A stretch of 62,973 nucleotides of DNA, filler included, from Sphaeroforma arctica JP610 (taxonomy: Eukaryota): the NCBI RefSeq assembly GCF_001186125.1. It is 6 parts of 2 records of this genome, joined end to end, with 100 filler letters (N's around TTAATTAATTAA, not from the genome) between each part and the next. Parts side by side here need not be neighbours in the genome. Positions count along the whole stretch, not along the records: positions 40,671 to 58,861 come from NW_014040547.1; 5 more parts are not named here. The stretch is one strand, 5' to 3'. Made by a program: the position numbers and the translations under genes. This document shows, one piece after another, positions 21,748-60,897 of this stretch (within the stretch, counting starts at the first letter, position 1; the number at the start of each line of letters is the position of its first letter). The notes under the pieces were generated by a model. The model was not told the DNA's origin, did not search any database, and saw only the letters and a program-made list of their open reading frames with translations.

Positions 21748-24700
21748 GTGTGCTATGAGCTATTGGAGCACTTCTACATCGCAGTGCGGTTGGTGGTTGT
21801 GGCTGCCAAGCTGGGTGGCTTAGAGTTTGCCCTTAGATACCTAGTAATGGAACATATACTGCCTGACCCGCGGCAGAATCCAGGACAAACCACGCCCTAC
21901 TGTGGCTCTGACCAGGTGCAGGCAATATTGGACCCGCTGGTGCAGATGTGGAGGGTGTAGGGCCATCGATTCGTGCGGTTGCAGCAGTTGCAAACTGTGT
22001 TGGGCGAGCAGAAAGTGTGTGCATGTGAGTGTGTGTTGGTGAGTGTTGTCTAGCGTATATATGTTGTTATGAGCATATGTACATGCATGTGTACTGTGGG
22101 ATTGTAGGTGGTGTGTGCATGTGAGTGTGTGTTGGTGAGTGTAGTATAGTGTGCATATGTTGTTGCGTGTATATGTATGTGCATGTGTACTGTGGGATTG
22201 TAAGTGGTGTGTGCATGTGAGTGAGTGTTGATGAGTGTAGTATAGTGTTTATATGTTGTTGTGTGCATATGTAAGTGAATCTGTGGGATTGTAAACGTTG
22301 TGCGTAGCATAGAAGTTTGCAAATCGCTTTTGCTCGTGTTTTCCTATGTAAGGTCTGCGATCATCTGTAGCACTGTATTGTGTGCAGGTATGTACTGTAT
22401 GTATATATATATATATATATAGTGTATATATTCGTATGGTAGTTGTTCAATATATGTTGTATGCCTATATATATGTGGTACATACATTCGTATAGTATTT
22501 GTTAACATGTGTTGTATGTGTGTATATGAGGTGAGTACATTCGTGTCCATGGTATCTGTGCACATATGTGACATACGCAGATGTATACATCTCAACCACC
22601 CTCCACAACACACTAATAATCAACCCATGTACATCCCCGTACAGAGCACGTATGGGCCCCATCTGCGATGCATCGTCTACTTCGAGCAGCGGCTGTGTAC
22701 TCATATCGCACACGACTACCTACGCACAAGCGCAAAGAGAATGCGCACGGCAGTTGTGTATGGCGCAGGAGCTGTCACACGACAAATAGGTCTCACTCCT
22801 AATGCTGTGAGGAGGTAAGCGACGACGTGGCGGTTGGAAAGGGTATACTGCCGAAAGTCATTGANNNNNNNNNNNNNNNNNNNNNNNNNNNNNNNNNNNN
22901 NNNNNNNNNNNNNNNNNNNNNNNNNNNNNNNNNNNNNNNNNNNNNNNNNNNNNNNNNNNNNNNNNNNNNNNNNNNNNNNNNNNNNNNNNNNNNNNNNNNN
23001 NNNNNNNNNNNNNNNNNNNNNNNNNNNNNNNNNNNNNNNNNNNNNNNNNNNNNNNNNNNNNNNNNNNNNNNNNNNNNNNNNNNNNNNNNNNNNNNNNNNN
23101 NNNNNNNNNNNNNNNNNNNNNNNNNNNNNNNNNNNNNNNNNNNNNNNNNNNNNNNNNNNNNNNNNNNNNNNNNNNNNNNNNNNNNNNNNNNNNNNNNNNN
23201 NNNNNNNNNNNNNNNNNNNNNNNNNNNNNNNNNNNNNNNNNNNNNNNNNNNNNNNNNNNNNNNNNNNNNNNNNNNNNNNNNNNNNNNNNNNNNNNNNNNN
23301 NNNNNNNNNNNNNNNNNNNNNNNNNNNNNNNNNNNNNNNNNNNNNNNNNNNNNNNNNNNNNNNNNNNNNNNNNNNNNNNNNNNNNNNNNNNNNNNNNNNN
23401 NNNNNNNNNNNNNNNNNNNNNNNNNNNNNNNNNNNNNNNNNNNNNNNNNNNNNNNNNNNNNNNNNNNNNNNNNNNNNNNNNNNNNNNNNNNNNNNNNNNN
23501 NNNNNNNNNNNNNNNNNNNNNNNNNNNNNNNNNNNNNNNNNNNNNNNNNNNNNNNNNNNNNNNNNNNNNNNNNNNNNNNNNNNNNNNNNNNNNNNNNNNN
23601 NNNNNNNNNNNNNNNNNNNNNNNNNNNNNNNNNNNNNNNNNNNNNNNNNNNNNNNNNNNNNNNNNNNNNNNNNNNNNNNNNNNNNNNNNNNNNNNNNNNN
23701 NNNNNNNNNNNNNNNNNNNNNNNNNNNNNNNNNNNNNNNNNNNNNNNNNNNNNNNNNNNNNNNNNNNNNNNNNNNNNNNNNNNNNNNNNNNNNNNNNNNN
23801 NNNNNNNNNNNNNNNNNNNNNTCAAGTGTACCATCAACATCTCTCCCATCGCTCCCTTGAACTAAATGCTCGCCCCTCCCTACCTACATGTCAGCGTTCT
23901 GGCTGACTTTGCCAGTGGGAGTGTGTGTGTTCTGCTGTCTACTTCCGTGACAGGGGAAGGGCTCGACATCCCCTCCGCCAACACCGTGATCCGCTTTGAC
24001 AGCATTTTGACACCGACATCTCTGGTGCAGAGCAGAGGCCGTGCCCGTGCACACGACAGTCGCTTTGTGGTCATGGGAGACGGGTTAGCACGACGCAAGA
24101 GTGTACGTCACATGCACACAGGTGAACTGGCGCAGATGGCCGCTATACACGCCATTGCTAAGGAGGCTCGCTCTAATGGGGGTGTGGAGAGTGACACCTG
24201 GAGCACCGACGAGGGTGCGGTGGAGCGGGAGAACGCGCGCGCGACGCGTAAGACGCGCGCGGCAAAGCGCGCGAGGGAGCGCGCGGAAGGGCTTGGGCGT
24301 GAGGAGAGGAGAGAAGGGGCGGTGCCGGAGTGGGATGGGACGTTTGTGTATGGGCCGAAGCATCTGAAGGCTGGTGGGGAGTATATAGTTGTCATGGGAA
24401 CGGACACGGGCGATGTGAACGCGTGCACTGTGCGCAACGGGACGGACGGCGCACACGAAAGTGCCAATGCACACGAAAGTACACCAGCACATGAACATGA
24501 ACATGTGCAGGGCTACATCAAGGCAGGAGAGCCTGCGCAAGCAGAGGACAATGGTACCTACAAGCACGTGGAGGGGGGCCTGGCAGAGATAGAGGGCGAG
24601 AGTACGCCTCTACAGTATGGTGAATATGAGCGTGGAGAGACCTCTGGAGACGCGCAGCTGTGTACACAGGGCCAGCTAGAAGCGCGCACGCGTGTGGGTA

Positions 24701-38826: not shown

Positions 38827-40670
38827 TAATGATATATTTAAATATATAGATATATACTATCTTTCCCTGTGATCCGGCTCCGAGTTCTCTTTCTCGCGAT
38901 CTCGAGATTATCAGGAGCTTAAACCTACTACAATATACTTGTACGGATAACCTGTCCTCTCGTTCTGCACTATCTAATATATATTTATATAAATCTCTCA
39001 CTACACATACACATGCGGCCGAGTGAGTATGGGTGGGTGGGGATAATTGTTAATATTTACTTCTGTTGAAATGCGTAATCATTGTATGTATCATTTCAGT
39101 GACAGGCTGACAGCACTGACAGGTCACAGGCCTACAGTATCGTTCTCTATTAATTCGATATTTAACTCCTCTCTCTGTCGTGCAGTCTTGCGTGAATACA
39201 AAATTGGACTTTTATTGGTCAAGAGGCGAGCCAGGCTATGGCAACGGATATCAAAAATCGTATTAATTTTATAAAAATGTGATAAATAGCATCATTACGT
39301 TTCACGTTATAGAACGTACAGTAATACGTTCAAGGCACAAATGTATATTAACTAAAAACAAATAATTATCAATATTTCATCTGTTTACGTTCAACGTATA
39401 CATTGAACTACCATAACGTATGAGGTTTTGTAATTATGTTTTCAGTATTTCACACGAAGTTATAAAACAGGGCGAGTCATCCATACACTCATTCCTCAAT
39501 TTGTGATTAAATGTGGTTTAAAAAGGTACATATGTATTCGATATATTTATATATATTGCAGTTACACGTCTTTATGAGGTTGTTGCTTTGTATCAATCGT
39601 CAATACATCGTGCTAGTAGTGTAGTAGCTCATGGTAATTATCTTTAGCTGCTTTTATGGTTCACTGTATACCGCCGTCAGTGTTCCGGCACGTCGCAATC
39701 ATGTTAATTTAATTTGTGTACAGCCAGCGAGTCAAAGAAAGGCGCGATGGTTGCAGTACTCCTTCTTAACCGATCCCTAACACGGCGTGTGGTGGAAAAA
39801 AAAGTTTCTCAGCCGTTAGTTAGATGTGTGTGTTCGTATTTTTCAAACAGCCCCTGTGCATGAGGGTTGTCCTTCCACGAATCTCGATCACTTCGATCGC
39901 TCTCACTTAGAGTGCGCTCTCACAACCCGAGTACCGCACTTTCGACACATGTCGTAATGTAAGAGCTGAAGTGTGTATAGCATTATCCAAAGTTAGGCCT
40001 GATACTTGGAAATGGTAACAGACGCTAACCATTATTTAATTCTCAGGACCATATATGTCCTTTCCAAGGAAAAAGTACAGTATCTTCTGCATGGTCCTGT
40101 CAAAAGTAGTTGAGATCTTCGGTGAGTGCAGGTGGTTCCTGCGAGGCCAGTGACTCCACAGCAGCAGCCTGCAAATGTTAGTTTCAGGAATCGATTAAAC
40201 ATGTGCACATTGTACAGTGACTGTCTCAGCTAACGTGGCGACGTATTTCGCAAATGAGATTCAATGGACGTTTTTCGACAAAATTTATGTTCAGTATGTT
40301 CCCCTGCTCCATGGATTCTTATTGTCAGAGATGCGAAAAGCATACCTCCTTCTTGCGAGAATCAATGAGAAGACCATTGATAGCGGCGAGTTCACGCTCT
40401 ACGTCCTGCCTCAGCGTCATTTCTAACAGGACGAAAGAATTGCAAGAATTTAGATACACTTGCTCGAACAGCACAGCTTGCGATTTGAAGCTATATTTGT
40501 GCATAACTATGTATGCTTGTGCATGTATATACCAGTATTGATATATTCAATTTATATATACATATGCATGNNNNNNNNNNNNNNNNNNNNNNNNNNNNNN
40601 NNNNNNNNNNNNNNTTAATTAATTAANNNNNNNNNNNNNNNNNNNNNNNNNNNNNNNNNNNNNNNNNNNN

Positions 40671-41560
40671 GACCCGTTTTTCCTTTCTCACTTTTTGACC
40701 CATAATCAGCTTGAGTGAGCAACTTGCTTCTCTTGGTTCTCAATGCTGGGTGGAGGCTGTGTACTAAGCCGGGCCTCCACATTAGACCAGCTCCAACCGC
40801 TGCTTCGAGCCTACACCAACCCGGCTCTGTGCTACGATTGTATCGAATACGTACTTGTTCACATTGCTCGACTACCGCACCGTCTGCCCTGTCTGCCTCA
40901 GTGGCCACAAATACACCACCAACCTCTTTGCCTACTTCCAACAATTGGTCCGACGCGTTCTGGTCGGCCCGAAACTGCCTTCCATTGGCCCTGACCTCCT
41001 CGAGCAAATACAGGAGCGCCGTGATTTCCATGGAATCTGGACCCTCCACGACCACCTTCTAAAACTCACATTCCCACACCCGTCTCTGACACATCAACAG
41101 ATGTTCCCCATACCTCGGCGAATCATGCTGTTGTGTAAAAGTCGGTCTCCTCTAGGCTTACTATACGATACCAAGACGTTTACGTTAATAAGACAATACG
41201 CTAATACGTTAAAATGCAAAATGTTAAATAAGTTTAGCTTCAGCCCTTGGTAATGAGCAAAAGATTAGGGGATTTTAGACTGAGACTATTGTCTATATGC
41301 TCCGCTCTAATCACTCACTACTTCGGTCTAGATTTATTTCTATTTTAGTTACTAAGACCAGATATCATTTCATTGGACGCTTAGTTTACATTTCACGTCT
41401 CGAAACAATCACCTAATCAAACTAACCAATAAAATACCTCTAAGTCCAACTTAAGAAAATCAAAATAAAATCAAAACACCAAGCTGGTGCAGTATACATC
41501 TGCACCTAGACCCCATCACTTGGTACCTAGCTCCCCATCCCATTTAAGGCATAGACGGGC
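40671..41560 (-). mobile_element. Copy of a dispersed repeat family (LTR- or retroelement-like)
   Basis: 40800-41090 is similar to 42230-42560. 41180-41560 is the reverse complement homolog of 49930-50220. Confidence 0.7.
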
Positions 41561-41959
41561 ACATCTAGTTGGCTGGCTAGGAGGAATCAAAACCATGTCG
41601 TCCTAAATTCTAACAACTCTGATCCTGTCCTTTTCTCAGAGGATTATCTTGCTCTGAGATCAATATCGAATTATACCATAGGTTTGTACCAACAACCATT
41701 TCATGCCTGAGACTCTCTCTCAAGGTACTCCCATTAATTAGAGATTCCCAAAGTGTCATTTTCAGGTGTCAGATTGGTGTCGTTCCTATATTCGGTACAA
41801 TTCTAATTTCAGTGGAAAACCCAATCCATATTTGGAAAGCCACCTAGTTGTCCACAGTAGAGTCCCATACTCTACTGAGTACTGTCACATGTTCAGAATC
41901 TTGAATTTCTCAGTTTTTGTTCATGTCCAATTCGTTAAACGTATTCCAGTATTATATGT

Positions 41960-42760
41960 ATAAACGCTAATACGTTTATACGTTTTTAATATACGTTAAC
42001 TGTGCAACTACTATTAGGAACCCGCTATTTTTACAGTTGGTACTAGCTCCAAATTTCGGTCCAAACCAAATCATCGCGATCCAGGTCAACCAGTACATAC
42101 TGAGTGCATCCGTGGTCTGGTGCGGCATCGGTTTAAACCCAACCTTGCTCCTCAACCGAATTATGACGGATAACCTGGCCGGGTAAACCGCCAACCTCAA
42201 ACCGAGACAAAGCCAGACACGACAGCTTCAACTGCTGCCTCAATCCTACACCAACCCGGCTCTGTGCTATGATTGTAACGAATACGTACATGTTCACATT
42301 GCTCGACTACCGCACCGACGGCTGTCTCTGCCCTGTCTGCCCCGGTAGCCTCAAGTTCACCACCAGCCACTTATCCTGCATCCAACAACTGATTCGACGC
42401 ATCCTGGTAGGCCCGAAACTGCCGCCCATTGGCCCTGGCCTCCTCCAGCAATTACAGGAGTGTCACGACTTCCACGGTATCTGGACCCTCCACGAACACC
42501 TTGGATCTTTCTCCAGCATGTAGAAGAACCACCGTGCCATCACCCGTCTCTGACACATCCTAAAACCATAGAGGTGGGTGCGCTACTTAGAAGGTCAGCA
42601 AGCAAATACGTGGCACATTCAATGGTGTCAGTTTTTTGTCAGCACCGACCTAAATTTACCCAGCCAAACGGCAATTTACTGACCACTTCTTCCCATCGAT
42701 CTTCCCCAAACCACTACAACGGCTATGAGAGCCATACCATATGTGCACATATTGTAACTT
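41960..42760 (-). mobile_element. Copy of the dispersed repeat family
   Basis: Shares GGTCAGCAAGC(A/G)AATA with 57304 and 58821, and GACCACTTCTTCCCATCGATCTT..CCATACCATATGT with 57420 and (inverted) 60385-60490. Confidence 0.75.
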
Positions 42761-43529
42761 ATCTCCTTTGCAATAAAAATTAATATCCTTATGCCTGTCT
42801 GTGTACAATAAAAATATGAGATACACAACGCTACTTGCATTGCTGTATATGGAAATGGCTAGTCTCAAATCCCGTACAGTTGAGTCCACACAAGTTCCCG
42901 TGTCAGGTTAGCAATCAACACAAGATTATTGATTGTAAAGCCAACACATCTGAGGTAGACAGATAGTATTGGAAAATTGCTATGTAGACAGGCATATTGT
43001 AGGATACATACACTGTCCATACATCTTCAGTGCAGTAGATATAGGCCTGCAAGAATGGCAATGTGAGAATTTTACTAATATTCATATTTAAATGGACAGA
43101 GTTGCGGATAAAAGCTTGATGTGTAAGCACAACACAAACATGCAGCCGGAACCTGTTCCTACAATAGAGGACCTGTAAATTTGAACCAACGCTGTTCTCT
43201 GACAAATATTTAGCCGGGTTACTTCAATCTCTTTAGTATGTGCTGCTTCTTCTGTTGCTTTATTTAAAGTACAACAGTGCACTTTCAATTTCTACAGGCC
43301 ACTGAAATATCGATTTTCACAGACGTAAATTTGCCATTATGTTAATGAGATTTCCCTTCTGACATTCTAAATTATGTACAATGTGTATGCGATATAGAAA
43401 ATACATAGTTGCATGATGCCAACATGGTGATGGAACTGGTTAACATTGGATTAACCAGGCTGACTGTATTAAAAATGAAATACTTAAAAACAATTCAAAG
43501 GGATATTAAGTTTAGCTTCAGTCCTCGGT

Positions 43530-46500
43530 CAGGGAATTTAATACTGGGACTTTTGGCTATCGAGTTTAACCATGCTGTTGTCCCATCCATAAAACGGGTC
43601 TTGTAGTAAGTGTGACCACCTTCGGATGTTTTGTCAATTATACCATTGACTTGTGACTCTATAACTGGGGCATCATAATTAAATGAGCGAGCGAATGAGA
43701 GTTCGGAGGTAGAGATACGGTGAGTGCTTAGATTGGTTGCGCTAGTACCACCTAGGTTATTTATTTCGTAAGTATCACTCTTCTCATCGTGGTAGGGAAT
43801 AACAAAAGGTCCAATTGTCTTAGAAGAGAGTTCGCTAATTTGGCATTGGAATTTGTAATGTTAGCGTAATCGCCAACTTCCTAGTGTTATTTCATTGGTC
43901 GTACGCTTTAAGTAGGACGCAATTCCTGTGCTCGAGTAAACAAGGGTAAACAACGTTCTGCTTATGCTCGATCCTTTTTAGCCACGGGGTAACGTGTTTC
44001 TTGGGCGCAGTTTTGTCAAACGTTGCTTGCAATTCACTATAGCGGCCAAAGAAGTAGTGAAACGGAAGTGTTCCAGTTTGAGGATTCATGCAGTTATTTC
44101 TTTGAGTCTGAACCTATTTCGAATGATAAGGCCACATATCCTCAACGTTATCTAGTGCGGTACGAAAAAGATATTTTTTAGTTCTCTATGACGTGTCTAA
44201 TTTGCACCCTACGTTCGAGGTTTATTAGGAACACCATGCCTATGGGTCATGCCTGATACGAGTATAAGTGCCTTCATTACGTCGGTACAAAACTCACTAC
44301 TGTACTCGGGGGAAACCGAAGTTATCAAACATATCACAACTCTGCCACTGTTTGCGGGCGTTTTTGTTCGGTCGCATAAAGAAAGTTATAGCCCGAAGCC
44401 ACATATAAGAAATGACATATGTATACATCGCCAGTATGCTTGGATCGCGGAAGTTCAACCAAATCGGCTATGACTCGGCCCATTGGTTGGTCTTCGGTCA
44501 CAGTTTTTAGAGGTGCCCAACCGTAGCCTTGATCTGATTCTTTTCACAATCAATACAGCGTCGGTAAATTTCACTTATGGGTTCGTTCAGCGCCGGGTGA
44601 TCAAGCCCTGCGCAAATGGCCGTCTTATGAGTATGCTCATATGCTCGATGGGTTCAATTATGTGTGGTTTTAACTCTACTTTCGAGCTCTTCTAAGTGAG
44701 TCAGATTATGAGTAACGCTGGCTGAATGAACAGTAGTCTCGTTAGACAAGGCAACTTCAGCATCAGGAGGGGTAGAACCCTAAGATACATAATTATCAGC
44801 ACTAAACTGTTGAAGTATCTTCTTCAGTTGTTTCGCAACTCCTGGCTGTTCTTTAAGCAGCGCTTTAAGTAGTTGAGCGCGAGCTTCAGATTCGCTTAGA
44901 GCGTTGAGTCTTTAATCCATGGCCTTAGCTAGTTCCATGCTTTTATGATCGAATGCCGCCTCAATCGGCATTACCTCGACTGTTTGTTCAAACACTTTAG
45001 ACTTCTCTAGTTTAGCTAAGAATTCGGTTGAGACTTCTACTTAGTGGTATCTGCAGGACCGATGTGACAAACAATTATGTGTTTCCAAGGTGTCTTCTTT
45101 ATAGAATAGGATCCCTGATACATGAACGTGTCGGTCTCACGGTCATAGATAGGTTCGTCTTATTAATTTTATCACATATCCATGGGTCGGAGCTACGTAA
45201 GGGACAACACAGTGTAAGGGTAGATTTAGTAATATTAACAAAATTTAACAACTGTGCGATAAGTTGCCAAGCTGGGTTAGCCCACGCATTATGCTTTGTT
45301 AAGTCAAGTTGAAAGGCATCACCTTTAGGATGAGTCAATGACCTATATTCAGAACCCTGCTTGTTATATTCTGCGGCGAATATATCAACAGTAAATGAGC
45401 CCCATCGTCATTGAGCGAGGTTAAATTATTTGTTATTAAGCATCCAATTGGTTGCTAATAACTCTTTGACTGTTTTCTGGTAGTCAGAGACAAGTCGAGA
45501 GAGTATGTCAGGAAGATAGTTATGTATTCCTGGTATGTGTGTAATATTAAAAGCGAACTTCGCAATAATGTCATGCTAGCGGCTCACCAACTGTGAATCA
45601 AGGTTCCTGTCCTTTAAGTATGCTAAAGACTTTTGATCACAGGCGACAGTGAATTAACTTCCCTAAAGGTAGTCTTTAAACTTCCTTGGCGCTGTAACTA
45701 TAACAAGGAGCTCTTTTTTATCGGTAGGGCAATTCCATTGACTCTTATAACTCTTGCTAAAGAATTGTAAGTAGCGCGGTTTACCATTTATCGTTCGGTA
45801 AAGCCCTCCACCTACCGCTCGATCTGAAGCGTCGGTCGCTACTTGGAATGGGACGTCATCTACAGGGTATTTCACGGTGGGTGCGTTCATCACTTTACTT
45901 TTGACTAGTTTAAATGCATCATCACATTCTTCAGTCCATATTTTCCCAAATGCCCTTTGTGTAGCCGCAGGTTACTGAAAGGATTCAAGTAATGAGAAAG
46001 ATAAGGTACCGAATCTGAGAAGAAGTTAACAAACTCACACACAGAGTTCACATCTCTTACAGTAATCGGTGTTAACAAATCCAACATAAATTGTTCCTTC
46101 CAGGATCAATTTCTACCCCTGCTGCAGATACCTTGTAACCAAGTGTATAGTATATTTAGGAAAAAGAACACTTGTTCTCTTTAATCTTAAGTTTAGCGTG
46201 GTTAAGTCGCTTTAAGACTTCCTTAACGAGTTCATCATGTTCATGTACCGTCTTTATAAAGATATCTGTATCATATAAATAGACTGATACGATATCCGAC
46301 AAGTCCGCATATAGTTCCGTAATTACTTGATGAAAAAATGAAGGTAAAATGTGCAAGCCTTCAGGTGTACCTTCAAACTGGTACTTCTTACCTTGCCAAG
46401 TAAAGGAAAAGTATTTCTTATGAGGCTCATATATCTGTAATTGAGGAGATGCAGCTTTTAAGTCTGTCGTAGAAAGACAGTCGCACCTTTCATTTTGCGC

Positions 46501-48600
46501 AGTATCTCGTTTATCTTAGGTAAGGGAAAACTGTGTTGCGGAATTAGCTTGTTGATTTGTGACAGGTCTAGTATAATACTTGTTTTACTAAACGTTCCAT
46601 CAGACTTATATTGATCGACCACTAGAGAACTAAGTTAACTGGGGATGAATCATAATTGATATCAATTTGACCCTGTTTTAACCAATTTTCTATCTGGGTC
46701 TAGACAACGTCTTTGTGTCTCCAGCATACGTGGTTTTATGAAGGACACTTTAACTTAGAGAATTCGACGTTTGTTAAGTCAAGTTCAACTTACCCGTTAG
46801 AGAACTTGAACATACACCAGTCAGTGATTGCAATCTTCCTGTTTTGTAAAATTAAGCCCAAAATTATATCGGTAAAATGCGGAATCATTTGCTTCACCTT
46901 CTGGAAGGTTAGGTATCTTTAACATATTATCACCTGATCTTTATTCGGGTCTAGCCCATTAGGAAGACCAGTGAGTGTTATACCTAAACTGAGAGGATCA
47001 GTCATACCTATAATGAAGTCGTATTTCTGAGACCAGTCAGTAACAATTAGGTGAGCCTATACCTATCTTCTATCTGACAACATTATGTGTGCATAGTCAA
47101 TGGCTTCGTCGCAAGTGGCAACTTCCAATCTGATAAAAGAAAGCAGGCTGGGAAATCAGAGGATGATCAAGTGTCGACGACGTGGTGCCGATGGTTTCTA
47201 AAGAACAAAATGAAGACGATTCGGACTGAGGTAGATAATTTGTTACATTCAGAGTATGTTCTTTGTTTATCTAAACCCCCGGCGCCGGACTGAAGTCCCA
47301 TTATGGGTATTAATGGCTCGATGAATGGTTAGATAACGAGGGCGGATGAATAAGATAGTCTTGCGATATATTTTGTGACTGCCAAAACATGCAGTACACC
47401 AAGGTTCGCTACTCCTTTTTTGCTGATGTATGTAAGACAGTATCGAATTTACACTTTCATGGCGTTACATCATGTATGCAGCTGTCAAGTACTTTGGATA
47501 TGGACAGATTTGTTTTCATCAGTTTCCAATAAGACTACCTTACTTACAGTATTATTGACGAACCCGGATGGCCGCATGTTTTGAGTCTAACATGACTCGG
47601 CATACAGATTATCTTATTGACTTATCAACCATGGTTGTATTCGATCCATTGACATTTCACAATGCGTGGTGACTGATCGAGACGTTACGTCGCTGCCTCG
47701 AACAACGTTCCAAGTCCCCGAGGTTGACAACAATCACCAATGGAGTTATCATCCACGATGGTATCTGACGAGGAGGTCCCTTGGAAGTCACCGGAGGCGA
47801 AAGTCAACTCAGTCTTACCCAGAAAAGAACTTACTCCGACGCCGCCACCAGATCCTCAGCAAAAGCCTACAGCATCACCAATTGTATTTCGTCGGGATCT
47901 GGTGGCGAAGATGATAAGTGACTACATTATCTAGATTTTTACATTCTGAGCTTCGACTGAAGAAGCAAGGATTGCGAACTTTTCAACACGGAAGGAGCAT
48001 GGAGAATCTAATGGTGGTACGGTTTTAGATCCGCGGTGCCACGACTCGTCTTCAGCTACGCGCTGCATAATAACGTACCCATAGCGCTTTATCTGGGTCA
48101 CTTCGCCGTCATTGCATTCATAATACACTTGTATAAACTGTTTTAAGGTTCGGTCGTACACGTACCTGTTGCAATTTTTCTTGACCCTCGCATTATATAT
48201 ATGGTTAAGAGCATGAATCTGCCTTAATCATTTCAGAACAGCTCTCCCCGGTTGATTTGTAACATCGAAATCAGAAGGTGGGGATTCTAAAACTGCAACA
48301 TCACTTGTACTTGAAGACTCGTCTTGTCCTGCATCGAGTGAAAGATCAAACGTATCTATGCGATTGATGTTTGTTTTGTCCATTAGTTGAGTATCATGAT
48401 CCTATAAATCTGGAAAGTCGTTCATCAGTTGTTTAAGTAGCCTTGCCTCAGCTTCGTTAGTAACTGATAAACGACTTCTTTAATCGTTACCCAACTAGTA
48501 GACAAAGAAGCAGTCGTTGTGAAGAATAGATTGCACTTTTGACTCCACGAGAAGCTGTCAAAACAAATGTGCAAGAAACACAACCAACTCTTAATCCAGG
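43530..48600 (-). mobile_element. Decayed Ty3/Gypsy LTR retrotransposon: (gag/PR) - RT - RNase H - N6-adenine MTase - integrase - chromo-like
   Basis: RT ~46690-46100 (LDLSQINKLIP..FPLPKINEIL..FSTTDL..FSFTWQGKKYQF..TPEGL..VSVYLYD..KCSF). RNase H ~45860-45490 (TDASDRAVGGGL..FFSK..KKELLVIV..FTVACDQKSL..HIPGIHNYLPDILSR). Integrase ~44690-43780 (H-x3-H..CIDC; PMGRVIADLVELP; FGFP..SEFC; GMTHRHGVPNKPRT; PFHYFFGR; GPF). Many stops and frameshifts. LTRs not identified and outer bounds are approximate. Confidence 0.9.
45130..45450 (-). pseudogene. DIRS-type (phage Dam-like) N6-adenine methyltransferase domain within the Gypsy pol
   Basis: In the RNase H frame: NWMLNNK*FNLAQ*RWGSFTVDIFAAEYNKQ...GDAFQLDLTKHNAWANPAWQLIAQLLNFV...TLTLCCPLRSSDPW. 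This matches the pattern W.L...F......WG.FTVDLFA...N / DAF / NPPW / P.W..PW. Confidence 0.8.
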
Positions 48601-49077
48601 ATGCTGGTGACTGAGTTCTAAACTTTCACGTCCCTTAACGTTTGCTTACAATATATATAAAATGCTGCAATAGCTTGATTGTAATATTTGTAAGCTAAGA
48701 ATGTGGTAATCATGTAGGCTTCTACTTGTGAACAATAGAAGATGTATAATAAAAATATATGGCTGGGATTGTAGTATAATTGCAGCTATGTTTGCGCAAA
48801 CAATGAAATATAAGTGGCTGTGTTCAAATTATCTAAATTTGCTGACGTGAGTGATGATAACGGGTTAGAAGGTTTTTATAGCCAGGTAGCTTAAAGTACT
48901 GTTCTAGAGTTTAAGAGTGGCTAATAATATACGACCAAAGGAAACTATAGACCTCGTTTCACGTGCGAATCTTAGGTAAAAGTCAAAGGCTGTGTGATTC
49001 ACATTGAGTCTTCGTTTGTGTTCTGTGGTTCTTCACTAGGCTCAACATCTACTTGGATGTTTGTCTCACACGTAGGG

Positions 49078-49134
49078 CCCCGGTATCACTTTAATCCCGG
49101 TATCACTTTAATCCCGGTATCACTTTAATCCCGG
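49078..49134. repeat. 17-bp tandem repeat, ~3.3 copies
   Basis: CCCGGTATCACTTTAAT x3 plus a partial unit. Confidence 0.95.
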
Positions 49135-49929
49135 TTCTACCGCTAAAATTCTGCTGCCAGACTAATATCAGAAAATTTAGATCCGGCCCCAAAGCTCAGG
49201 ATTTGATAATCCTGGGGTTTGGACTCAGGGTTGTTTTTACTCAGAATCTGGTACCTAGATGCTACATTGAAAATCTTTCCCCGAGTTAAATAGATACCGA
49301 CTCGAGCACAGGTCAAGGCTAACTCCGATGAAAGTGGTTGAGAAATAGATATTCAGGGATCTAAATCAGTTAAATAGCATATAAAAATAGATAATGGTGG
49401 GGACAAGGCTTTTCATGAATTAAAACACCAATCCCAAGAAATTATAGTACAATAAGATGCCACTTCTTCCCCCTACACAAGCTCAGAAGTGCAAAGTTGG
49501 GGACCTGATCATCTAAACTGTATTAGCCAATGAGGCGACTTCACCGATAGTGACTACTACTATCTTCACCGATAGCGAAAGGATATGACGATGAAACTCA
49601 CATTGATCGGAGTGCGTATCATTGCCTTCCAACTGTCAATGGAACTCATCGAAGAAGAGGATGCGAGTTCTGGACTGTCAACTTACGAGCCGGGTTATGA
49701 GAACGAACCGTCACTGGTAGCAAAACGGAAGGATAGTACGCCTCAGAAGGAGGTTCGAAGGATAGTGAGTCGGAGCTAAGCGGTTTAGCAACGAAGAATT
49801 GCTGTTGATCGTAGTGCTCGAAAAAGGTGACAGCCGAATCACAGCATATTACGGAGTCCTACAAATTGAGTGCTCAAACTGGGTTGTTGATACACGAGAT
49901 CTACCAGATCATTCAGCACAAGCTTATTC

Positions 49930-50620
49930 CCGTCTATGCCTTAAATGAGATGGAGAGCTAGATACCAAGTGATGGGGTTCTAGGTGCTGTGGATTTACTG
50001 CACCAGCTTGGTGTTTTGTTATAGGACTTTTTCGAAGCATGAACGCGACCAATGACCAATCTTAGTTGTTGACACCAAATAAATCCAGCGAAGTAGTGTG
50101 ATCAGAGCGAAGCCATATCGACAAAAATCTCAATATGAATTCTCCTATGTTTAGCTCACTACCGTAAACTTAATTTATTTTTCCAATTTAACGGATTTTC
50201 ATCAACTTAACGCTTAGTACCATACAGTCAGCCTGGTTATGCCAACTTTTCAAAATAATCTGCTCAACGAGCAGTTGGCGATGGCGCCTGCTGTGAGGAT
50301 AAGCTTTGACCATAAGTCTCTGAGAAATCTGCTCCGGGGAGACCGATACCCCCCGGAAATTTCGAGGACAAAGGCAATGACGGGTGTGGCATGGTGGTCG
50401 AGTACATACCATGATCCTTCCACGTGCTGGGGGACGGTTAGGTTTGAATGTGGTAGACAGGGCGATGAAACGGAGGGTGACGTTCGAGTGGCCATTAGAT
50501 CAGTGCGACTCTGTTGAAGCGCAACCCATGCTCTCGGTACCGTGTGATTTTGAACGAGCAAGACGAGGGCACGGTGTCGGTGGCCAGAGTAGTACAGTTG
50601 ACACGTGAGCGCCGGACGCA
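49930..50620 (+). mobile_element. Inverted-orientation copy of the dispersed repeat family
   Basis: CCCGTCTATGCCTTAAATGAGATGG..CCAAGTGATGGGG..TGCACCAGCTTGGTGTTTT is the reverse-complement homolog of 41470-41560. The region near 50380-50430 resembles the reverse complement of 42500-42560. Confidence 0.7.
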
Positions 50621-51470
50621 ATGTATATACCCTAAATGGGGTGTGGACAAGTTGACCTAGGCGAATATTTAGGACCGAGCCATCACCAGAGGACCGGACC
50701 TATGAGATTATTTTAGAACAGGGCCAGAGGACCGGACCAGAAATGATTCAGAATGTAGCAAAGAAGACGATAACTCATTTTATGTACCAAGAAAAGATTA
50801 TGACTCTCATACGATGCCATCATAATCTAGCATCTAGCAGACCAAAACCATAAATACGAGTATTTTCACGTAACCCATTGTTCGAGTAAACTTATTTAGA
50901 CTTAACACTTTTTACTAAGCACTACTCAGTTTTGACTACCAGATTGCTGATGAACTTGTTCGCCGTACTAGGCCAACACTACCGCCCAGCAAGGTTCAGT
51001 GAAATCCGCCCAGAAGTGGGATCTTAGCCCGGAAACAGGATCAAAGAAATCCGCCCACGAGTAGTGATCCCAGCATAGATGGTTCAGAGAAATCTACATA
51101 AGATGGGATTATGCGGACTATGGTCGAGGCAGTCGCGAGACTTTTCAGTGTTGTAGTAAATTAGATAATGACTGAACCAACCTATTAAGAAGTTGGTTGG
51201 GTCAGTCATTCACCGCTTGCAAGGCACTGCAGAAAAAAAACAGACAGTTACGGCAGACTCAGGCAAACGGTCGCTCACCGACAACTAGGAGTGATACACG
51301 CTATGTGCCGCATATACATAAGACAATCATAAAGGCGGTAAAAGTGTTCTCAGTTGTTATGGCATGTACGGTATCAGACCGGATACAGGATAACAGCTCT
51401 GTGGAGTGAACGATTTAAAGTGAAGGTGCCACGGCAAAAGCGCAGCACCAGGCCACCGCGCTCCTTTCGA

Positions 51471-57129: not shown

Positions 57130-57500
57130 TCTACAGGTTTCCAATCCAGGCCAACCAGCAAATACCGAGTGCATCACCGAACTATGATGGATAACCAATA
57201 CTATTGTCCCTACTCGGTATTTCGTACCTTGCACTAACCCATTCCACGGCATTGCACGGTGAAGACCCGATCCGAACCACAGAGGTGGACAAGTTACTTA
57301 ATAGGTCAGCAAGCGAATACGTGGCACACTCGATGGTGTCAGGTTTTTCATCAGAACGACCCAGCGCATATCCTCCATCGTCGACTCACGTGGCCCAAGC
57401 TTCAAACGGAAATTTGCTGACCACTTCTTCCCATCGATCTTTCCCGACCCACTACAACGGCCATGAGAACCATACCATATGTACATACATTGTAACCGAC
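57130..57500 (-). mobile_element. Copy of the dispersed repeat family
   Basis: Homologous to 42560-42760 and 58620-58860. Confidence 0.7.
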
Positions 57501-57883: not shown

Positions 57884-58620
57884 CTATGTCGAAATGTCGA
57901 ACCTCCCTCCGCCACAGAGATTCATCCAGTGGTGCTTCGTAGCTCGATGTACAAGCCGAATAATCTCCAAATTTACAGGTCGGTCTCTGAGCTCAGGCAG
58001 CTTGCTGCCATCTCTTGCTCGTAGATGGTAACTATGATTTTCCCTACTATGAATCACGTATGGACCAAGCAATGGTTTCATGGCTTTGGTTGTCGCTCCC
58101 TGTGCGAGTAAAATGACGACGTCCCCCGCCTTAAATTCAATCAAATCAAATTTACGCAACTGATCCGTAGCCTCGGCCATGGCATCAGTATATTTAATTG
58201 TTTTCTGACGAAGTTTTGGTAGGATAGTCTTCTCTAAATCATCTAATCTCTTCAACCAGGCATCGCTCGTGGTAGGAATATGACCAGGTAAGTCATTAGT
58301 CATGTTTGCAAACGGGACATACCGTCGACCAAAATAAACACTGAATGGTGCTGACTTGTGACGTCGTGATATCCGAAGGTTCTGGTATAACATAGTAAAC
58401 GGTAAACGTTCATCCCACAACTCCGAAAAACCAACACATAATGCGCACACACATTTGTGGATTTCTTTATGTCGGCGCTCCGCCGCCCCCAACGTCTTGT
58501 GTATAATGCCCAATGCCCGTGTAATGGATTTGACAATACTGTTGACAAATTCGGTACCCTCGTCACTCTGAATCTTACGAGGAAATCCATGCTCACCAAA
58601 CACTGACACTAACTCTGACT
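57884..58620 (-). mobile_element. Ty3/Gypsy integrase fragment (rve core + GPY/F)
   Basis: Open ORF: VFGEHGFPRKIQSDEGTEFVN..GAAERRHKEI..WDERLPF..N..SRRHKSAPFSVYFGR..FKAGDVV..GPY. 5'-truncated at a copy of the dispersed repeat (58620-58860). Confidence 0.9.
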
Positions 58621-58961
58621 TCCGATCCAGGCCAGCCAACACATACCGAATTCATTCGTGGTCTGGTGCGGCATTGGCTTACCCCCATCCCCGCTTCTCG
58701 ACCGGATTATGACGGATAACCTGGTCCTTCTCGGTATTTTGTACTCTGCACTAACCCATTCCGCGGCACTACACGGCGCAGATCCGATCCGTACCACAGA
58801 GGTGGGTACTCTACTTAGTAGGTCAGCAAGCAAATATATGGAACATTCGATAGTAACAGTGNNNNNNNNNNNNNNNNNNNNNNNNNNNNNNNNNNNNNNN
58901 NNNNNTTAATTAATTAANNNNNNNNNNNNNNNNNNNNNNNNNNNNNNNNNNNNNNNNNNNN

Positions 58962-59450: not shown

Positions 59451-60897
59451 TCCTTATGTACTGATTATCTATATCTTTTAGTCGATATAAATCAGCATTA
59501 TTCTATTAGCACGCATGCCATTCTAAAATAGAAGCAAAACCGCAACATAAAATTGAGACCAGGTAATGGAATCTATTGTTGTTTTGTTTATCAACGCTAA
59601 TTTGAAAAATAGTCGATTATAAACACGACAAACTTGGCCGAACAACTCGGGAACTGAATAATTTTACCTTCATGTCTTAAGTAATGTCCCAGGTCAACTT
59701 TGTCTCGATACTGCACAAATTAGACCTCGCGACGAAGTTATGTGAATAGTTGGCATTTTTATCACGATTTATTCAAAATTGCGGGTATTTTTAGAGTTAA
59801 AACAAGACCACTTCAAATTGAGCATATGTATACATCATTGAATGCTTTAGATTCACCCAGAATGAATACATTTAAGTACGGTTGTTGCACTATTACACAA
59901 TGTTTGTTTAACGTTGTGGAATGGTGCAAAAAACCCCCCCCGACTAACGTAATAGTATAATATCTTTGTGAACATTTAATTGCCGATCTCTAAATACTGC
60001 TGATAAGCTACCATAAAAAATCAGCCGCAACCAGGAGATTGTCAATCTTATGGATGAAAGCATGCTACAAGACAATGTTCTATTGGGAATCAGGCTACCA
60101 AATATGTTTTAGTGAAAACCAATTATGAAACATATCAGTCAATTTCAGGGGTAAACAAAATATTTTCAGATTGGGTTCTAAACTTCTCTCGTCAGGATCT
60201 AGGTATTTGACATCAAATGTAGCTGATAGCAGCTGAATTTTTAGTAGACTTTATGTAAATAGCGAATTCACAATAGACAGTCGTGAGCAATACACAAATC
60301 AGTGATCTTTTTGAATATATCACTCTGTGCACACTGCAGTCTGCACAGGGATAATATTATTTATTTCAAAGGAGATAAGATACAATGTATGTATATATGG
60401 TATGGCTCTCATAACCGTTGTAGTGGTTCGGGGAAGATCGATGGGAAGTAGTGGACAGCAAATTCCCGTTTGAAGCTTGGGCCAAGTGAACTTTGAAGTG
60501 TTGATTTTTTTCGTAGCATTCTCAAACCTCTGCTGAAAAAAAACCCAGGACAATTCTTTGTCTTTTTGGTGGAATATTTTTGGAATTTGTTAAACACTGT
60601 CCCAAAAAGGAAATCATCGTGAGTCTGGGGAAATCACGGACTCACGGCTCGTGACGAGTCACTGACGACGGTGACGATCTGTAATTTTTTGGGGGAAATA
60701 AACTAATGCTTTATTAATGATCCGGGTTTACGAGACACGACCCGAACCGTGTGATAAATATAATTTACTAGTATATACACAAGAATCTGTGATATCCTTC
60801 AGCTTATCACAACGAGGTAGCCTGCGCGATTAGCACGCTTCAATCACCAGGTACACTAACCATGAACTCCAGTATCTAATCTGGACAACTTTCGCAG

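What the first reader, a model, noticed from the sequence alone, without database searches (positions are those of the whole stretch)
43780..46690. Ty3/Gypsy retrotransposon carrying an N6-adenine DNA methyltransferase between RNase H and a DDE integrase
Seen: the RNase H reading frame continues past PDILSR into NWMLNNK*F..RWGSFTVDIFAAEYNK (WGSFTVDIFA at 45375-45404), GDAF and NAWANPAWQLI (NPAW at 45267-45278). After a linker comes an integrase with HHCC finger, IADLVELP, FGFP..SEF and PFHYFFGR. Established: this Dam-like MTase placed after RNase H is characteristic of DIRS1-type tyrosine-recombinase retrotransposons, which lack DDE integrase. Here the RT and RNase H (DAS..FFSK..KELL..FTV.CD.KSL) are Gypsy-type and the integrase is DDE. 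Inference: this is a chimeric LTR lineage that captured a 6mA writer. It might methylate its own cDNA or insertion sites, for example to mimic active-chromatin 6mA or evade host defence. I do not know of this architecture as a described family. NPAW rather than NPPW may reflect decay of this copy.
Basis: partly seen in the sequence, partly recalled or inferred. Interest (0 to 1): 0.88.

Follow-up and report, generated by a model that had tools for sequence, protein, structure and literature searches.

The report
Dead methylase-carrying Gypsy retrotransposon copy
This is a broken copy of a repeated Gypsy-type jumping gene in a single-celled relative of animals that carries an adenine-methylase-like domain between RNase H and integrase; the arrangement is real, but it was described for this same species in a 2026 preprint, and what the domain methylates, if anything, is untested.

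Summary
Observation confirmed, novelty not. Window 47125-43534 (minus strand) is a decayed pol remnant: protease half, RT, RNase H, Dam-like methyltransferase, linker, HHCC/DDE integrase, SH3-like and chromo-like tail. It is colinear with uninterrupted 1368-1400 aa relatives holding all domains in one frame, so it is not a nested DIRS fragment. Other copies in public runs read NPPW; NPAW and the stops belong to this copy. A host gene 4.6 kb away is identical to a Sphaeroforma arctica protein, and an Abeoforma relative shares the architecture. The scan found this architecture before in other genomes. Two additions: the lineage, said there to lack chromodomains, ends in a divergent chromodomain-like segment (more degenerate and only indirectly linked in this family), and a relative's predicted methyltransferase fold is nearest the RNA cap methylase PCIF1/CAPAM, not E. 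coli or T4 Dam. Activity is unshown.

The parts
47000..47125 (-). Second half of an aspartic protease; the catalytic DPG stretch, gag and 5' LTR are absent from this copy
   Evidence: Homology to P0006 starts at its residue 72; P0006 Asp_protease_2 27-112, DPGA at 39; family coverage stops near 47085-47180
46130..46640 (-). Reverse transcriptase, Ty3/Gypsy type, frameshifted; YLYD in place of YLDD
   Evidence: RVT_1 E 7.8e-15 in one frame; YLYD 46281-46270; 76% identical to P0006 RT; P0006 best solved match Ty3 Gag-Pol E 6.3e-63
45495..45899 (-). RNase H (TDASD, KKELL, CDQKSL, PDILSR), three stops
   Evidence: RT_RNaseH E 3.3e-17; Ty3 Gag-Pol E 4.1e-11
45055..45452 (-). Dam-like (PF05869) / PCIF1-like N6-adenine methyltransferase domain: VDIFAA, DAF, NPAW (NPPW in other copies); two stops and one frameshift
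   Evidence: Pfam Dam E 2.1e-4; alignment; other copies; fold of relative P0022
44670..45030 (-). Poorly conserved linker
   Evidence: 30% identity P0006 vs P0007 against 67% in the methyltransferase; only a weak unrelated Pfam hit
44537..44662 (-). HHCC zinc finger of integrase
   Evidence: Motifs; Integrase_H2C2 in Abeoforma relative P0011
44040..44480 (-). DDE integrase core, broken; the stretch of the second Asp is disrupted and the Glu position is a stop
   Evidence: P0006 rve E 5.9e-9, PFV and HIV integrase matches; window segments 76-81% identical to P0006; GAN*TRHRE against NETRH
43680..43880 (-). GPY/F, SH3-like integrase C-terminal segment (label inferred from position)
   Evidence: GPFVI 43812-43798; positional alignment; SH3_Tf2-1 at the same place in P0032, P0033, P0097
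43560..43674 (-). Degenerate chromodomain-like segment, cut before its last helix
   Evidence: 9.4 bits against a profile of 8 relatives' tails, 0 of 500 shuffles as high; profile of 8 relatives' tails plus this segment matches solved chromodomains, best E 2.6e-11; no direct match to canonical chromodomains

Best explanation
The stretch is a dead, end-truncated copy of a repeated Ty3/Gypsy family whose pol frame reads protease, RT, RNase H, adenine-methyltransferase-like domain, integrase and a likely chromodomain remnant, very likely the published Ichthyosporean DAM-LTR lineage; in intact copies the domain would most likely methylate adenines in the element's own reverse-transcription product. 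Shown: domain order in one frame, decay of this copy, NPPW in other copies, conservation of the domain, host species of the neighbouring gene. Inferred: the domain travels in Pol into the particle and binds SAM at VDxFAA. Having no target-recognition lobe of its own, it would act on nucleic acid held by RT/RNase H or integrase (single-stranded or RNA:DNA intermediate). The marked cDNA would then be kept methylated at ApT by host AMT1 after integration, giving new copies transcription-friendly chromatin (the preprint's model). Membership about 0.95; this mechanism about 0.45.
For: Single-frame relatives with RT-RH-Dam-INT: 3 of 3 hits; 20 of 152 collected proteins carry integrase. RT and methyltransferase trees both place the window with P0006 and P0007 among integrase-bearing proteins that include Abeoforma P0011, apart from 48 RT-RH-Dam-only frames (SH-aLRT 94-95) and 119 DIRS-like rows (support 98). 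The domain is as conserved as RT and RNase H (67% vs 61% and 71%; linker 30%). NPP[FWY] in 103 of 151 domains. At the NPAW position, 50 contigs holding 505,246 of 505,568 summed depth in run X1, and all depth in X2, X9 and X5, read proline. Host gene 100% identical to SARC_00378. Preprint: DAM-LTR insertions in S. arctica and A. whisleri are more often 6mA-marked and more expressed than other LTRs.
Against: No catalytic activity has been shown: such domains gave no 6mA in dam-minus E. coli. The 6mA enrichment is a correlation that transcription alone could produce. The nearest solved folds are RNA methyltransferases (CAPAM Z 9.9, DIMT1 9.8; M.TaqI 8.1, T4 Dam 7.8, E. coli Dam 7.3). The closest uninterrupted relative, P0006, has CPPW. 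An AU test did not reject forcing the window's RT onto the DIRS-like side (p 0.27, 178 columns), and my trees held no named Ty3 or DIRS reference. LTRs, target-site duplication and gag could not be seen in this copy.
Confidence: 0.5

Rival explanations
1. Same element, but the domain is an RNA methyltransferase of PCIF1/CAPAM kind that would modify the element's own transcript (cap-adjacent A or the template inside the particle); 6mA on insertions would come from host AMT1 following transcription.
For: Foldseek ranks 1-3 are CAPAM (E 1e-4 to 4.6e-4); VIA rank 1 is CAPAM, Z 9.9, rmsd 3.2, 132 aligned, and 14 or more of the first 16 rows are RNA enzymes by title. Weak PCIF1_WW hits in 3 of 33 scanned relatives. 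Iyer et al. put DIRS1 methyltransferases in the PCIF1 clade. Negative assay on E. coli DNA.
Against: Z values within 1 are tied, and the DNA enzymes M.TaqI (8.1) and T4 Dam (7.8) are not far below; identity is 13-15%; the model is of relative P0022 (41% identical over 86 residues), not of this family. The sequence family is phage Dam PF05869, and the preprint traces these domains to prokaryotes. A shared fold shows no substrate.
Confidence: 0.22
2. The domain is catalytically dead or dispensable and is kept as a nucleic-acid- or SAM-binding or structural module of Pol.
For: Iyer et al. call all DIRS1 copies likely inactive. At least 41 of 151 domains have another motif (FPPF 26, HPPx 8, FPPV 3, CPPx 3, APPL 1) and 7 had none found. 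P0006 is uninterrupted yet has CPPW. Earlier scan notes report versions without the motif (unchecked).
Against: NPPW or NPPF is kept in P0007, P0008, P0011, P0012, P0013, P0014, P0016, P0017 and P0019 across 30-67% identity, and in the other copies in public runs.
Confidence: 0.25
3. Chance nesting: a DIRS RT-RH-MT fragment lies beside the integrase of another element.
For: This copy is badly broken; the AU test on its RT was not significant.
Against: Colinear over residues 72-1304 with one uninterrupted protein; protease and DDE integrase lie in that same frame; no tyrosine recombinase or other Pfam family in 12 frames covering 40600-43600 and 47000-50600; congruent trees; repeat coverage across all domains.
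Confidence: 0.02

Closest known systems
Ichthyosporean DAM-LTR lineage (Fernandez-Moreno et al., bioRxiv 10.64898/2026.05.21.726589; whole main text read, supplements not seen)
   Same: Ty3/Gypsy-like pol with a DIRS-derived Dam domain; reported in Sphaeroforma arctica, Abeoforma whisleri and Pirum gemmata; same model of cDNA methylation and AMT1 upkeep.
   Different: The preprint says the lineage lacks chromodomains; here its members, Abeoforma P0011 included, end in a sub-threshold chromodomain-like segment. The preprint compares the domain with T4 and E. coli Dam; the fold search here puts PCIF1/CAPAM first. This copy is dead.
DIRS1-type tyrosine-recombinase retrotransposons with a methyltransferase after RNase H (Iyer et al. 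PMC4738411, passages read)
   Same: Homologous methyltransferase directly after RNase H in the RT frame.
   Different: This family has an aspartic protease, Ty3-type RNase H and HHCC/DDE integrase in the same frame, and no tyrosine recombinase nearby.
Chromoviruses, including the preprint's Chlorophyta DAM-chromovirus-like clade and plant group II chromodomains (PMC3350952, passages read)
   Same: Integrase ending in GPY/F, SH3-like and chromodomain-like segments; P0032, P0033, P0064 and P0097 have Dam between RNase H and integrase plus a Pfam chromodomain.
   Different: Here the segment is below Pfam's cut-off; in the window and P0006 the first and third cage aromatics are absent and the central W is F (my reading of the alignment). 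Membership of a chromovirus clade was not tested.
PCIF1/CAPAM cap-specific adenosine methyltransferase
   Same: Nearest solved fold for the predicted model of a relative.
   Different: 13-15% identity; the retroelement domain is only about 140 residues against 470-490 for CAPAM chains; substrate unknown.

Membership tests
Ichthyosporean DAM-LTR | Host is an ichthyosporean (Sphaeroforma, Abeoforma, Pirum) | tested here: met
   Neighbouring gene 100% identical over 99% of 301 aa to S. arctica SARC_00378; an assembly gap lies between it and the element, but element and its own flanks occur in the same runs
Ichthyosporean DAM-LTR | Dam domain in the pol frame with RT, RNase H and DDE integrase | tested here: met
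Ichthyosporean DAM-LTR | RT and Dam group with the Abeoforma element | tested here: met
Ichthyosporean DAM-LTR | Asn-Pro-Pro catalytic triplet | tested here: met
   Met for the family (other copies; P0007, P0011); this copy reads NPAW
Ichthyosporean DAM-LTR | No chromodomain, as the preprint describes it | tested here: inconclusive
   No Pfam Chromo at E 0.01 in whole P0006, P0007, P0008, P0011, which fits the preprint's method; but profile searches find a divergent chromodomain in the lineage, P0011 included
Ichthyosporean DAM-LTR | Raised 6mA and transcription of insertions | not testable with these tools
   Taken from the preprint
Ty3/Gypsy LTR retrotransposon | Order PR-RT-RH-INT with Ty3-type RT/RNase H | tested here: met
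   AU test on the decayed RT alone not significant
Ty3/Gypsy LTR retrotransposon | gag, paired LTRs, target-site duplication | tested here: inconclusive
   None found around this truncated copy; no genome or full-length copy was held
DIRS1 retrotransposon | Tyrosine recombinase, with no DDE integrase and no protease | tested here: not met
   Protease and rve in the same frame of P0006; no recombinase in flanking frames
Chromovirus | Chromodomain at the integrase C-terminus | tested here: inconclusive
   Clear for the lineage profile (E 2.6e-11; hhalign 98%); for window/P0006/P0007 only through that profile (94.7%), not directly (1.3%)
Chromovirus | RT inside the chromovirus clade | not tested
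   No Dam-less Gypsy references were in the tree
N6-adenine methyltransferase | Rossmann methyltransferase fold with SAM motif and NPP[FWY] | tested here: met
   Model of relative P0022, pLDDT 93.4; methyltransferase matches
N6-adenine methyltransferase | Methyl transfer to adenine in DNA | not testable with these tools
   The one published heterologous test seen was negative

The most novel reading that the evidence does not exclude
The ichthyosporean DAM-LTRs are overlooked chromoviruses, sharing one Dam capture with other chromodomain-bearing DAM-LTRs, and their 'Dam' is a PCIF1/CAPAM-like enzyme acting on the element's RNA or RNA:DNA intermediate, so one Pol carries both a chromatin reader and an RNA-side adenine writer.
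Probability: 0.12. Interest if true: 0.65.

Novelty: already known. Interest (0 to 1): 0.24.

Why it matters
As a discovery it matters little: the element type, host species and proposed mechanism are in a 2026 preprint, and this copy is dead. Two points are useful to that field. A hidden chromodomain would change the description of the ichthyosporean lineage and might lower the count of independent Dam captures. The PCIF1-like fold without a DNA-recognition lobe suggests why a test on E. coli chromosomal DNA failed and points to RNA, single-stranded DNA and hybrids as substrates to try. The family is abundant in a culturable host with a published 6mA map, so the question is testable there.

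Tried and rejected
No genome was held, so copies could not be counted or full-length elements inspected. One search translated a wrong frame and was not used. A first fold from a 4-row alignment failed (pLDDT 37.5); the second fold used relative P0022 with 70 rows. A sequence search of solved structures with a 34-row methyltransferase profile found nothing meaningful (5 matches, best E 0.28). The protein atlas gave no answer twice. No RNA holder was listed for the stretch, so expression was not assessed. Summed contig depth shows a repeat but is no copy number. A search with the Abeoforma C-terminal region returned only itself. The careful RT tree did not finish; the quick tree was used, with 9 of 74 RT hits dropped as too short. 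The AU test has little power because the constraint can be met by re-rooting the LTR side. No LTR pair or gag was found: self-comparison of 40000-51000 gave only unrelated repeats. No earlier notes exist for this genome. Literature searches listed no paper, other than the preprint, on ichthyosporean Dam-bearing LTRs or their chromodomain; the preprint's supplementary figures were not seen and could show domain maps bearing on the chromodomain claim.
Full report
Observation. RNase H and the first 100 residues of the following domain share one frame with five stops. Pfam gives RT_RNaseH E 3.3e-17 and Dam PF05869 E 2.1e-4 (21.4 bits, cut-off 28.1). The RNase H matches Ty3 Gag-Pol at E 4.1e-11.

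One element, not two. A search with the domain found 3 proteins among 428 candidates, all 1368-1400 aa, each with RT, RNase H, Dam and integrase in one frame; P0006 also has a protease hit. The window is colinear with P0006 from residue 72 to 1304 (47125 to 43534) in 18 segments of 58-84% identity, with about 20 stops and at least 13 frame changes. RT reads YLYD and the integrase Glu position is a stop. The copy lacks the first half of the protease, gag and the end of the tail; no LTR pair, recombinase or gag was found in the flanks. In four public runs, summed contig depth is mostly 10^4-10^5 over 43670-47179 against roughly 50-250 on the flanks, which are covered by single contigs with at most one differing letter: a repeat family, copy number not measured. 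Contigs identical to this copy span its two methyltransferase stops and its frameshift. At the third position of NPAW, other copies read proline: 50 contigs with 505,246 of 505,568 summed depth in X1 and all depth in X2, X9 and X5; other copies also lack the two stops. The window's own letter at that position is seen only as the small remainder in X1.

Host and relatives. A gene at 37924-38829 is 100% identical to Sphaeroforma arctica SARC_00378; an N gap lies between it and the element. A profile search of 1.84 billion representatives gave 6201 hits at E 0.001, of which the best 150 were listed. Of 152 proteins collected, 74 have RT and 20 have integrase; one, P0011, is from Abeoforma whisleri with protease, RT, RNase H, Dam and an H2C2 finger (which scanned 33 of the 150). 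In the RT tree (66 rows, quick method) the window joins P0006 and P0007 (95) in a 12-row clade with P0011 (95), apart from 48 RT-RH-Dam-only frames (94). In the methyltransferase tree (153 rows, FastTree) it joins the same two (100), and all 20 integrase-bearing rows lie outside a 119-row group (98). I call the integrase-less frames DIRS-like from their architecture; no named DIRS or Ty3 reference was in either tree, and the sample is the top of one search. Against a strong reading of the RT tree: an AU test did not reject holding the window's RT with the DIRS-like rows (p 0.27). The Gypsy assignment therefore rests mainly on the protease, Ty3-type RNase H and DDE integrase in one frame, and on Ty3 Gag-Pol as best solved match of P0006 (E 6.3e-63).

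What the domain is. Between P0006 and P0007 it is 67% identical, against RT 61%, RNase H 71% and linker 30%, which suggests purifying selection. NPP[FWY] occurs in 103 of 151 domains; 26 have FPPF, and P0006 is one of 2 with CPPW. A model of relative P0022 (same side of the tree, 41% identical to the window over 86 residues) has pLDDT 93.4. Foldseek ranks CAPAM/PCIF1 first to third; VIA gives CAPAM Z 9.9 (rmsd 3.2, 132 aligned), tied with DIMT1 and KsgA/Erm, then M.TaqI 8.1, T4 Dam 7.8 and E. coli Dam 7.3. Iyer et al. (PMC4738411, passages) place DIRS1 methyltransferases in the PCIF1 clade and think them likely inactive. The 144-residue model is a bare catalytic core; that it lacks a target-recognition lobe and must be handed its substrate is my inference.

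An overlooked tail. After the GPY/F segment, relatives end in a block like F-K-[KR]-I-[IL]-D-H...Y-x-[VI]-x-W...T-W-E. A profile of 9 such segments (8 relatives plus the window) matches 77 solved sequences at E up to 1; nearly all of the 60 shown are chromodomain proteins, best MPP8 E 2.6e-11 and HP1 E 3.3e-10. Pfam Chromo appears for 7 of 9 members at E up to 10, best 3.8e-6; the Abeoforma segment scores 15 bits, under the 25.1 cut-off. Caveat: these segments were first delimited with a chromodomain profile, although an alignment anchored only on the GP[YF] motif gives the same block. For this family the link is indirect: P0006 11.9 bits and the window 9.4 bits against the relatives' profile (0 of 500 shuffles each), P0007 4.9 bits (3 of 500); hhalign 94.7% to that profile but 1.3% to four canonical chromodomains. 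By the Y24/W45/Y48 numbering in PMC3350952 (passages), the window and P0006 lack the first and third cage aromatics, as plant group II chromodomains do; histone binding is untested.

Comparison with what is known. bioRxiv 10.64898/2026.05.21.726589 (whole main text; supplements not seen) reports Dam domains in non-DIRS LTR elements, defines five lineages, and names an Ichthyosporean DAM-LTR lineage in Pirum, Abeoforma and S. arctica with Ty3/Gypsy organisation and no chromodomain. It finds such insertions more often 6mA-marked and more expressed in S. arctica and A. whisleri, proposes methylation of reverse-transcription intermediates kept up by AMT1, and reports no activity in dam-minus E. 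coli. The scan's earlier notes on other genomes reached the same preprint; I had found it before.

Verdict. Real feature, already known; this copy is a dead member. Most likely mechanism in live copies: self-methylation of the reverse-transcription product (about 0.45-0.5), against an inactive module (0.25) or an RNA substrate (0.22). The hidden chromodomain and the PCIF1-like fold are modest additions. Interest 0.24.

Noticed in passing
window 48033-48476 (-): A more diverged fragment of the same family's linker and HHCC finger (about 24% identity to P0006, E 2.6e-5), about 900 bases upstream of the main copy, on single-copy contigs.
   Followed up: partly
window 57884-58651 (-): Open 255-aa integrase C-terminal half of another Gypsy-type element (25-32% identity to the Dam-bearing relatives; rve E 0.025), lying between two 81% identical 134-base repeats at 57209 and 58726.
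   Followed up: partly
window 42077-42794, with copies at 40788-41058, 57275-57496, 58623-58860 and, inverted, 60343-60472: A separate high-copy repeat without a Pfam match, 830 unique bases downstream of the element; not shown to be its LTR.
   Followed up: partly
P0006 residue 694: The closest uninterrupted relative has CPPW in place of NPPW (2 of 151 domains): a possible inactive or altered-substrate subfamily.
   Followed up: no
P0057, P0136: 2100-2400 aa proteins with an Exo_endo_phos domain, then Dam, then RT, RNase H and an H2C2 integrase finger: Dam before RT, on a long separate RT branch; recalls the preprint's odd Euglena elements, not checked.
   Followed up: no
window 37924-38856 (-): Host SPRY-domain gene identical to SARC_00378; used only to name the host.
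   Followed up: yes
window 30564-31331 (-) and 23866-24150 (+): Frames with motifs that look like a HemN-type radical SAM enzyme (CSYCNF, FFGGGTP) followed by a 27-base tandem repeat, and like a Dicer/RIG-I-type helicase C-terminus (GEGLDIP, QSRGRAR); labels recalled, not tested.
   Followed up: no
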